A stretch of 64,000 bases of DNA from a virus (Duplodnaviria > Heunggongvirae > Uroviricota > Caudoviricetes): IMG/VR virus record IMGVR_UViG_2925897562_000001. One strand, 5' to 3'. The notes below the pieces were generated by a model. That model ran no database searches, was not told where the DNA came from, and saw only the letters and a program-made list of their open reading frames with translations. Shown in pieces: positions 57,126 to 57,978 of this stretch. The stretch's first letter is position 1. The number at the start of each line of letters is the position of its first letter. Made by a program: the position numbers and the translations under genes.

Positions 57126-57139
57126 GCAGTGGTATTGAT

Positions 57140-57949
57140 ATGCAAGAAGAGAAACAACACTACCTCTACGTTCTGGTGCCAGAGAACGGAGATACTTTTA
57201 AAATCGGCATTTCATGTGGTCCATTGGCACGGTTTAAAGGGCTACAAGTGAGTCCCGATTTTGCGCTTTCACGGGTCTATCGTGGTACGCGTTTGGCAAT
57301 GGTTAATCTTGAGCGGGCTTTACACGCAACCTTTTTCCCCTGGAATGCGCCGTGGGAGAAAAGCGCCGGTGGCGGGCATACTGAATGGTTTACACGAGAG
57401 TGTCTTGATAAGGTTTTGGCTCATATCGAATATCTAAATGATATGTGGGGAGGGATTCTCGAGCGCATCAAGTCGAATGATTTACTTCAGCGTCCAGTAG
57501 ATGCTGCTTGCTCTTTCGAAAAAGAGCTGGATGTTACTTCTATCGTGACTTTCAAAGATGACGCAGGAATGAGGGACGTGGCTTATGTCTCCATATCTGG
57601 CTATGAACCGGACGCGATCCGCGCTCAATGTGAATTGCTGAAAGCAATGTTTATGCTTCGGACTAAATATCCCTGGGAGACAGGGCGGGTGTGCTTCCCT
57701 ATGGAAGAGTTAACCGCCACCATTGATTCCCAGCTTTACCACGATAATCCAGAGAAGTTTTTTAGCCTTTTAGCCGGTAATGGGCTTAACTGTGTGTCCG
57801 GGCTGGGGCGAAGTAGAATCCAACATGCCTCGCTCTTCGGTCCCTTCTTTTACGATCGACACGGGTACTTTGAGGCTGAACTTCCGGCGCTTACGCGTGC
57901 TATAGATACTATCGATTTCGAACGATTATTCGCTGCTCTTAGCAAATAA
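57140..57949 (+). CDS. T5orf172 / GIY-YIG-like domain protein (accessory gene between incA and parA)
   Basis: 269 aa; N-terminal YLYVL...FKIGIS...R...LERALH...GHTEWF matches the T5orf172 (GIY-YIG superfamily) pattern; own terminator. Confidence 0.7.
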   Translation: MQEEKQHYLYVLVPENGDTFKIGISCGPLARFKGLQVSPDFALSRVYRGTRLAMVNLERALHATFFPWNAPWEKSAGGGHTEWFTRECLDKVLAHIEYLNDMWGGILERIKSNDLLQRPVDAACSFEKELDVTSIVTFKDDAGMRDVAYVSISGYEPDAIRAQCELLKAMFMLRTKYPWETGRVCFPMEELTATIDSQLYHDNPEKFFSLLAGNGLNCVSGLGRSRIQHASLFGPFFYDRHGYFEAELPALTRAIDTIDFERLFAALSK

Positions 57950-57956
57950 CACTGAT

Positions 57957-57978
57957 GCCCCTGAACGGGGCTTTTTTG
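57957..57978 (+). terminator. rho-independent terminator gcccc-tgaac-ggggc + ttttttg
   Basis: GC stem followed by T6 run directly after the T5orf172-like gene. Confidence 0.7.

What the first reader, a model, noticed from the sequence alone, without database searches (positions are those of the whole stretch)
57126..57978. T5orf172/GIY-YIG-like gene inserted between the replication (repA-incA) and partition (parA) modules
A 269-aa ORF with its own strong terminator sits immediately after the incA iterons and before the par promoter. From memory the P1 replicon has no gene here, and the oriR-to-parS span in this window is roughly 0.8 kb longer than I recall for P1. The N-terminus matches the T5orf172 pattern (GIY-YIG-superfamily putative nuclease/DNA-binding domain); the C-terminal ~170 aa are unassignable by eye. 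It could be a defence, anti-defence or plasmid-competition factor riding with the maintenance region.
Basis: partly seen in the sequence, partly recalled or inferred. Interest (0 to 1): 0.65.

Follow-up and report, generated by a model that had tools for sequence, protein, structure and literature searches.

The report
Replicon-linked T5orf172 nuclease gene in P1-like plasmids
A real, selected gene for a two-domain DNA nuclease (GIY-YIG/T5orf172 cutting domain plus a winged-helix DNA-binding domain) travels as a fixed part of the alternative "p0111" replication cassette of P1-like phage-plasmids. Classical P1 lacks it, it is already annotated, its function has never been tested, and it most likely acts in competition between related plasmids.

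Summary
A 269-aa ORF (57140-57949, +) with a hairpin/T-run terminator lies between the last incA iteron and Ppar. Canonical P1 has no gene there.

The "insertion" reading is only partly right. The window is a p0111-type P1-like phage-plasmid. The whole block 55766-58015 (incC iterons, repA, incA, ORF, terminator) replaces the IncY block of P1.

The ORF accompanies this RepA type in about 400 plasmids and in 418 of 5426 complete E. coli genomes. Diverged homologues (25-44% identity) sit at the same position in three other P1-like cassettes. One of those cassettes has a RepA 83% identical to P1's, so P1 is the exception.

The N-terminal part is a T5orf172/GIY-YIG domain with its conserved motif residues invariant. 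The C-terminal domain has no sequence relatives outside the family. Its predicted fold is a winged helix, weakly closest to the WH1 domain of Rep_3 initiators.

dN/dS is about 0.2-0.3 within E. coli. Between lineages the protein, especially its C-terminal domain, diverges much faster than RepA or ParA.

The most likely role is a sequence-directed endonuclease serving the cassette in conflicts between P1-like elements, either homing-like or like ICP1 Odn. That is inferred, not shown. The gene is already annotated and noted in the literature as unknown. Interest is moderate.

The parts
55766..58015 (.). Replicon cassette with no megablast/blastn match to canonical P1 (p0111 type): incC iterons, repA, incA iterons, ORF and terminator. 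It is 2250 bp here against 1491 bp in P1.
   Evidence: blastn against P1 locus L001 aligns 53266-55765 and 58016-60500 only. The block is 100% identical to NC_017653.1 and present in 418 of 5426 complete E. coli genomes.
55783..55881 (+). Five direct iterons (TTGACTATACGCGA-like, 21-22 bp spacing) of the origin, in the position of P1 incC.
55963..56847 (+). repA, a p0111-type Rep_3/RepB-family initiator (294 aa from the ATG used in RefSeq). It is 42% identical to P1 RepA.
   Evidence: Pfam Rep3_N and Rep3_C; annotation of RCS47; identities.
56850..57104 (.). incA-like iteron array: two forward copies (56850, 56874) and four reverse copies (56967, 57029, 57061, 57091).
   Evidence: the iterons are conserved in L003.
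57140..57949 (+). The ORF (269 aa plus stop): a T5orf172/GIY-YIG nuclease-family protein, PHROG 2876.
57140..57454 (+). N-terminal domain, about aa 1-105: T5orf172-type GIY-YIG fold. Y10, K21, G23, R31, H62, E82, W83 and F84 are invariant across 12 distant relatives.
57455..57520 (+). Low-confidence linker, about aa 106-127.
   Evidence: pLDDT falls to 59-64 in the 10-residue blocks covering aa 111-130, and is below 50 for aa 120-125. This stretch varies in length among homologues.
57521..57946 (+). C-terminal domain, about aa 128-269: predicted extended winged helix with no sequence relatives outside the four-cluster family.
57957..57981 (+). Intrinsic-terminator-like hairpin plus T-run ending the ORF transcript, upstream of Ppar.
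58035..58063 (+). Ppar, where the P1-homologous partition module begins. parA is at 58118-59314.
   Evidence: P1 annotation mapped through the alignment; promoter scan.

Best explanation
The gene encodes a sequence-directed DNA endonuclease. It has an N-terminal T5orf172/GIY-YIG catalytic domain, a flexible linker, and a C-terminal winged-helix DNA-binding domain. It is a stable component of the exchangeable replicon cassette (iterons, repA, incA, nuclease) of P1-like phage-plasmids.

It is probably transcribed by read-through from the RepA-autoregulated repA promoter across incA. Expression would then be highest when RepA is scarce, for example on entry into a new cell.

Its most likely job is to favour its own cassette when two P1-like elements meet. 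It would cut the rival element at a site that its own cassette lacks. The rival is then either lost or repaired from the nuclease-bearing copy. Because repA and incA of the two types are too diverged to recombine, such repair would copy the entire cassette between the conserved oriR-left and Ppar flanks.

Shown: gene reality, domain folds (predicted), linkage, distribution and exchange boundaries. Inferred: nuclease activity, target, co-transcription and the drive/competition role.

For: Second domain. It is compact (pTM 0.77) and winged-helix-like by two programs and libraries. Nuclease plus linker plus DNA-binding domain is the architecture described for T5orf172 and GIY-YIG homing endonucleases (PMC10448857) and for ICP1 Odn, a T5orf172 nuclease shown to cut a rival's replication origin (PMC8263062).

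Position. The stop codon lies 66 bp from the right-hand junction with P1 homology. In the sister pair L005/L003 the junction is 63 bp past the ORF, and the left junction is likewise at the start of the iterons. Two backbones, 94-99% identical within each pair, thus carry alternative cassettes with the same boundaries.

Polymorphism and linkage. P1 has no such gene. The literature reports IncY and p0111 at roughly equal frequency in P1-like elements (PMC9603915). The ORF is linked to this RepA type in about 400 plasmids and in 401 of 418 genome hits.

Selection. pN/pS is 0.19-0.29.

Fast divergence. Between window and L003, RepA is 84%, ParA 89% and ParB 67% identical, but the ORF is 44% (N-domain 64%, C-part 31%). 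This fits a specificity domain tracking a changing target.

Transcription signals. The consensus scans found no promoter-like site and no terminator between repA and the ORF, and the ATG lies 35 nt after the last iteron.

Wider family. Relatives of the N-domain sit in mobile-element maintenance or transfer regions and in one island with defence-like genes.
Against: Nothing here demonstrates nuclease activity, a target site or any effect on a rival.

Typical homing-endonuclease signatures are missing. The gene is single-copy, with no paralogue in the window. Only 12 P1-like phage records carry it. It is intact in at least about 95% of carriers. It is never seen moved on its own into an IncY cassette of E. 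coli.

Homologues appear to have diverged together with their cassettes over a long time. That also fits an ordinary accessory function.

The C-terminal fold matches are weak (Z no higher than 5.8; Foldseek E 0.04). The model rests on four sequences.

The promoter scan is a crude consensus test, so an own promoter overlapping the iterons cannot be excluded.
Confidence: 0.4

Rival explanations
1. It is an Odn-like or defence-type exclusion nuclease. The winged-helix domain would recognise a feature of foreign DNA, such as the iterons or origin of competing plasmids or satellites, phage DNA, or a DNA modification. The GIY-YIG domain would destroy that DNA. The plasmid or its host is protected, with no homing or cassette conversion.
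Confidence: 0.25
2. It is a domesticated nuclease-family protein acting as a regulator or accessory factor of its own replicon or par operon. Examples would be modulating RepA (possibly through a WH1-like interaction), copy number, handcuffing at incA, or insulation of Ppar. This would resemble PLE CapR, a T5orf172 homing-endonuclease relative used as a repressor.
For: The position between incA and Ppar is fixed in four diverged cassettes. The gene is probably co-transcribed with repA. It is long-retained and under purifying selection. The fold is WH1-like, and WH1 is the dimerisation and DNA-binding domain of Rep_3 initiators by established knowledge. The search listed the paper reporting a phage satellite's use of a domesticated endonuclease to tune phage gene expression.
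Against: The catalytic-type residues stay invariant across very distant relatives, which argues that catalysis is selected. Canonical P1 replicates and partitions without any such gene (mini-P1 biology is established knowledge). The C-terminal part is only 31% identical between window and L003, although their iterons and RepA are well conserved (RepA 84%). That is unexpected for a partner of RepA or the iterons.
Confidence: 0.15
3. It is a hitch-hiking or decaying ORF with no current function, kept only by linkage to repA.
For: No function is known. The putative Shine-Dalgarno is weak (sequence). There are occasional frameshifts and an IS1 insertion.
Against: pN/pS is 0.19-0.29. The gene is intact in roughly 95% or more of about 400 carriers. 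Full-length homologues are retained at 25-44% identity in three other cassettes, with motif residues invariant.
Confidence: 0.05

Closest known systems
T5orf172-domain putative homing endonucleases of phages (ICP1, T5-like; Barth, Dunham & Seed 2023, PMC10448857)
   Same: Both have a T5orf172/GIY-YIG catalytic domain at one end and a DNA-binding domain at the other. Both are free-standing genes in an intergenic slot next to essential or maintenance genes, at the edge of a segment exchanged between related genomes, and both show presence/absence polymorphism.
   Different: This gene is single-copy rather than expanded. It is rarely degraded. It is strictly linked to one replicon type rather than sporadic. 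It sits on a plasmid replicon cassette of a temperate phage-plasmid. Its C-terminal domain has no sequence relatives outside the family. Homing is untested here, and it is also unverified for the ICP1 genes according to that paper.
ICP1 Odn (Gp88), origin-directed nuclease (PMC8263062)
   Same: Both combine a T5orf172 nuclease with a replication-initiator-type DNA-binding fold. Both are involved with replicon modules that are swapped as iteron-plus-initiator units.
I-TevI and Seg-type GIY-YIG homing endonucleases of T4
   Same: Both have an N-terminal GIY-YIG domain of about 100 aa, a flexible linker and a C-terminal DNA-binding domain, for a total size of about 250-270 aa.
   Different: The catalytic subfamily differs: T5orf172 has KIG in place of YIG. 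The DNA-binding domain differs: winged helix here, zinc finger and helix-turn-helix there. There is no intron or phage-essential-gene context.
SLX1 / At-HIGLE (URI/GIY-YIG structure-specific nucleases)
   Different: They are eukaryotic repair nucleases with RING or partner domains. Only the fold is shared, at 11-18% identity.
Canonical P1 plasmid maintenance region (oriR-repA-incA-parA-parB-parS)
   Same: The layout and flanks are the same. parA is 99.7% identical, parB about 100%, and the left half of oriR is conserved.
   Different: P1 has the IncY iterons and RepA and no gene between incA and Ppar.

Membership tests
T5orf172 (PF10544), GIY-YIG clan | Profile HMM score above the curated gathering threshold | tested here: met
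   27.5 bits against a 20-bit cut-off, E 4.7e-6, aa 8-85 on profile positions 2-87 of 101. MUG113 scored below its threshold.
T5orf172 (PF10544), GIY-YIG clan | GIY-YIG/URI alpha-beta fold | tested here: met
T5orf172 (PF10544), GIY-YIG clan | Conserved motif residues (Tyr in strand 1, Arg in helix 1, metal-binding Glu) | tested here: met
   Y10, K21, G23, R31, H62, E82, W83 and F84 are invariant in 12 relatives. Their equivalence to the catalytic residues of characterised enzymes (for example Odn E180) is inferred from the motif pattern, not superposed here.
T5orf172 (PF10544), GIY-YIG clan | Endonuclease activity | not testable with these tools
   Needs purified protein with an E82A control.
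Free-standing homing endonuclease gene | Nuclease domain tethered to a separate DNA-binding domain | tested here: met
   Two-domain model with a low-confidence linker at aa 106-127. The C-terminal domain is winged-helix-like.
Free-standing homing endonuclease gene | Presence/absence polymorphism at one site between otherwise homologous genomes | tested here: inconclusive
   P1 lacks the gene. However, absence coincides with a different replicon block rather than an empty site in the same sequence.
Free-standing homing endonuclease gene | Frequent decay, variable presence and multi-copy spread within a lineage | tested here: not met
   390 of 400 plasmid records give a single place covering at least 80% of the protein. 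pN/pS is 0.2-0.3. There is no paralogue in the window, and only P1-like records match in the phage collection.
Free-standing homing endonuclease gene | Cleaves the gene-less allele near the insertion site and is copied into it | not testable with these tools
   Needs in vitro cleavage of the P1 incA-Ppar DNA and co-residence crosses.
Odn-like origin-directed nuclease | DNA-binding domain homologous to a replication initiator's iteron-binding domain | tested here: inconclusive
Odn-like origin-directed nuclease | Iteron-dependent cleavage of a rival origin | not testable with these tools
   Needs biochemical and genetic assays.
Known anti-phage defence systems (PADLOC-DB 2.0) | Match to a defence-protein model | tested here: not met
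   0 families at E up to 1.
Core P1-type rep/par maintenance genes | Present in all functional replicons of the type | tested here: not met
   Absent from canonical P1, whose repA-par region supports stable mini-plasmids (established knowledge; vectors are cited in the P1 annotation).

The most novel reading that the evidence does not exclude
The gene is a replicon-cassette 'drive' or weapon. A RepA-regulated T5orf172 nuclease would use an initiator-like winged-helix domain to recognise and cut rival P1-like plasmids. It would thereby displace them or convert their replicon to its own type. That would be a nuclease-based mechanism of plasmid competition, which would help explain the long-standing IncY/p0111 dimorphism of P1-like phage-plasmids seen in two host lineages.
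Probability: 0.25. Interest if true: 0.75.

Novelty: new member of a known kind. Interest (0 to 1): 0.45.

Why it matters
P1-like phage-plasmids are common in E. coli; this cassette alone is in 7.7% of complete genomes. They carry ESBL and other resistance genes. Their two replicon types are used for typing, yet the second gene of the p0111 cassette has never been studied.

If it is an active, targeted nuclease acting between related plasmids, it would be a plasmid counterpart of the phage and satellite nucleases of the ICP1/PLE system. It would also bear on how replicon modules are exchanged and kept polymorphic.

If it proves to be a dispensable accessory gene, the finding is ordinary. The gene is already annotated as a 'GIY-YIG nuclease family protein' and is mentioned as an unknown gene (gp57 of JL22) in PMC9603915.

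Tried and rejected
1. Insertion into a P1 replicon: rejected. The whole iteron-repA-incA block differs from P1.
2. Deletion scar in P1: tblastn of the ORFs against the P1 incA-Ppar interval found nothing. Loss cannot be told from gain by sequence; only the distribution (4 of 5 cassette types carry it) suggests loss.
3. C-terminal domain derived from the neighbouring RepA, as in Odn: hhalign probability 0.2%; no Pfam hit.
4. Known defence system: no PADLOC hit. No NCBIfam hit.
5. Solved-structure relatives by sequence: only a marginal GIY-YIG hit, 1ywl at E 0.15.
6. Structured RNA in 55500-58300: no Rfam match.
7. Foreign base composition: the ORF has 46-49% GC, like its neighbours.
8. Own sigma-70 promoter: none found by the consensus scan between repA and the ORF. 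The test is weak.
9. Linkage to Rep genes in the nearest non-P1 RepA relative (Providencia, 53% identity): no annotated gene follows repA for about 1.1 kb.
10. The afdb50 fold library was unavailable.
11. The genome-contig scan added only one more E. coli-type copy and one unrelated N-domain hit.
12. Literature: no paper combines T5orf172 with phage-plasmids or GIY-YIG with P1-like repA in a relevant way.

Full report
**1. What is in the sequence**

Eight bases after its stop codon lies GCCCC-TGAAC-GGGGC followed by TTTTTT. The terminator scan picks this up, and it folds at -11.9 kcal/mol, z = -2.7.

Upstream, the iteron TTGACTATRCGCGA occurs as follows:
- five times in direct orientation at 55783-55881, the origin;
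- once inside repA, at 56567;
- six times at 56850-57104, two forward and four reverse, in the incA position.

There are none in or beyond the ORF. The ATG is 35 nt past the last iteron. Downstream, the promoter scan hit at 58035-58063 coincides with the annotated P1 Ppar once coordinates are mapped. parA starts at 58118.

**2. Relation to canonical P1**

The window matches SJ46, RCS47, JL22 and phi456-type P1-like phages over the whole repA-par region at 98.6-99.0% identity. Canonical P1 matches only from the par promoter onwards.

blastn against the P1 locus aligns 53266-55765 (through upfA and the DnaA-box/GATC half of oriR) and 58016-60500 (from 19 bp before the Ppar -35). Between them lie 2250 bp here against 1491 bp in P1.

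The P1 annotation shows nothing between incA and Ppar, and tblastn finds no relic of the ORF there. RepA here is 42% identical to P1 RepA, while ParA is 99.7% identical.

But this is not an insertion. The whole specificity block of the replicon is the alternative 'p0111' type. [quoted passage not shown] It also reports the two types at roughly equal frequency among P1-like elements: 31 IncY and 24 p0111 of 55 (PMC9603915).

**3. Linkage and distribution**

- tblastn finds the protein in 400 PLSDB plasmids, all at 90% identity or more, and 390 of them as one full-length piece.
- This RepA type is found at 90% or more in 395 plasmids. The next relatives are at 53% or less.
- The 2250-bp block is in 418 of 5426 complete E. 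coli genomes, full-length in 401, and is 100% identical to plasmid NC_017653.1.
- Disruptions are rare: a few frameshifted copies and an IS1 insertion.
- Among 50,697 phage records, only 12 P1-like ones carry it. There is no paralogue in the window.

**4. Homologues elsewhere**

The word-indexed search of 5.8 billion proteins and the exhaustive HMMER search of 1.84 billion cluster representatives agree. Full-length relatives form only four 90%-identity clusters:
- the E. coli type, with 1241 members;
- P0004, 44% identical;
- P0009, 27% identical, from Salmonella enterica;
- P0011, 25-30% identical, from a faecal metagenome.

About 150 further proteins share only the N-terminal 100 residues.

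All three diverged homologues lie between repA/incA and parA of P1-like elements. L003 and L005 share one backbone (94-98.6% nucleotide identity) but differ in the block of iterons, repA, incA and ORF. Their junctions are at the start of the iterons and 63 bp past the ORF. This is the same kind of swap with the same boundaries as window against P1.

L005's RepA is 83% identical to P1 RepA, and L003's is 84% identical to the window's. Both replicon types therefore exist in two P1-like lineages, whose ParA proteins are 89% identical. In three of these four combinations, plus a third type in L007, the cassette includes a homologous nuclease gene. The simplest reading is that the gene is an old member of the cassette and that E. 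coli IncY P1 is the exception. That reading is an inference.

**5. Is it a functioning gene?**

Among E. coli variants, pN/pS is 0.19-0.29, with 6-10 synonymous against 4-10 non-synonymous differences. The counts are small.

Between lineages the protein changes much faster than its neighbours. For window against L003 the identities are:

| Protein | Identity |
|---|---|
| RepA | 84% |
| ParA | 89% |
| ParB | 67% |
| ORF, whole | 44% |
| ORF, N-domain | 64% |
| ORF, C-part | 31% |

GC content is like that of the flanks.

**6. Domains**

N-terminal domain. Pfam T5orf172 matches aa 8-85 above the gathering score. PHROG 2876 (unknown function) matches the full length, and PHROG 681 'endonuclease' matches aa 4-100. 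There are no NCBIfam or PADLOC hits.

In a 12-sequence alignment with relatives sharing 19-44% identity with the query, Y10, K21, G23, R31, D40, S44, E58, L61, H62, E82, W83 and F84 are invariant. This is the T5orf172 version of the GIY-YIG motifs; the residue equivalences are inferred.

- ORC and Cdc6 winged helices.

The best Foldseek hit in the viral library is a 'COG5527 protein involved in initiation of plasmid replication', at E 0.04. These scores are low and the alignment is shallow. 'Winged-helix DNA-binding domain' is reasonably supported; 'initiator-WH1-like' is only a lead.

No sequence similarity to the RepA proteins of P1-like cassettes is detectable (hhalign probability 0.2%), and Pfam finds nothing in this part.

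**7. Expression**

The consensus scans find no promoter-like site and no terminator on the + strand between the repA stop and the ORF. In L003 and L005 the start codon is likewise only about 10-25 nt past the last iteron.

I infer co-transcription with repA from the iteron-embedded, RepA-autoregulated promoter, as described for P1 in the annotation. RepA bound at incA would be a possible further brake. The ORF's terminator would then shield Ppar. None of this is shown.

**8. Mechanism**

A GIY-YIG-type catalytic domain tethered by a linker to a separate DNA-binding domain is the design of I-TevI-type and T5orf172-type homing endonucleases (PMC10448857). It is also the design of ICP1 Odn, a T5orf172 nuclease with an initiator-derived DNA-binding domain that cuts a rival's iterons (PMC8263062).

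The main points in favour of a targeted nuclease serving its cassette when P1-like elements meet:
- The gene sits at the edge of the exchanged block.
- Catalytic-type residues are retained.
- The putative specificity domain diverges fast.
- The gene is absent from a common alternative allele.

Because the repA-incA DNA of the two types is too diverged to recombine, repair of a cut near the incA/Ppar border of an ORF-less element from an ORF-bearing one would have to extend to the conserved left half of oriR. That would copy the whole cassette, which would explain both the strict linkage and the shared boundaries.

Against a classical homing endonuclease:
- It is single-copy.
- It rarely decays.
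- It has apparently co-diverged with its cassette for a long time.

I give 0.40 to the competition/drive nuclease. Of the rivals, an exclusion or defence nuclease without conversion gets 0.25, a domesticated regulator of its own replicon or par operon 0.15, and a functionless passenger 0.05.

**9. Wider family**

Relatives sharing the N-domain, all 270-300 aa with unrelated C-termini, are found in four kinds of context:
- a chromosomal island with WYL/WCX, Mrr_cat and Ymh genes;
- next to a relaxase/TrbM region;
- directly after an HTH_36 initiator-like gene near a ParA gene;
- near a ParB_N gene.

These are mobile-element maintenance or transfer contexts, consistent with a role in conflicts between elements. 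The sample is small.

**10. Verdict**

The gene is already annotated, and already noted as an unknown gene accompanying p0111 repA. Four things are added here:
- its status as a conserved, fast-evolving part of an exchangeable replicon cassette in several P1-like lineages;
- a predicted winged-helix second domain;
- the parallel with T5orf172 homing endonucleases and Odn;
- a set of direct tests.

It is a new member of a known kind (two-domain T5orf172 nucleases) in an unstudied context. Interest is 0.45.

Noticed in passing
window 56567-56580: An iteron copy with one mismatch (TTGACTATAAGCGA) lies inside the repA coding sequence, away from the two arrays.
   Followed up: no
L003 6831-9019 versus L005 6656-8944: A second P1-like lineage (Salmonella and metagenome contigs; ParA 89% identical to P1's) shows the same dimorphism of replicon cassettes with the same boundaries. 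RepA is 84% identical to the window type in one and 83% identical to P1 in the other, on backbones 94-98.6% identical. This looks like a polymorphism older than the split of the two lineages.
   Followed up: partly
L016 3431-5813: In an unrelated mobile element, two T5orf172/MUG113 genes flank an HTH_36 (initiator-like) gene downstream of a ParA-like gene. The second overlaps the stop of the HTH_36 gene. This is another case of T5orf172 genes attached to a replication or partition module.
   Followed up: no
window 55766-58015: This block is 100% identical to plasmid NC_017653.1 of E. coli O55:H7 str. RM12579 (94,015 bp), a likely source or near-twin of the window.
   Followed up: no
L020 5373-6637 (NZ_CP100885.1); also NZ_AP027538.1: In large composite plasmids the nuclease gene is interrupted by IS1 at the position equivalent to window ~57691 (aa ~184). 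The rest of the P1-like backbone there is fragmentary.
   Followed up: partly
OR339795.1 39982-40788 (phage phi456); L013 and L014 typing lines: There are annotation oddities. In phi456 the ORF is labelled 'terminase small subunit'. MOB-suite types these p0111 plasmids as 'IncHI1B'. RefSeq calls P1-type RepA a 'replication helicase'.
   Followed up: no
L003 8001-8123 (P0004 N-terminus): The database protein P0004 carries a 41-residue N-terminal extension that is simply the translated incA iterons (…AYSQH…AYSQH…). The conserved start is the ATG aligned with window 57140.
   Followed up: yes
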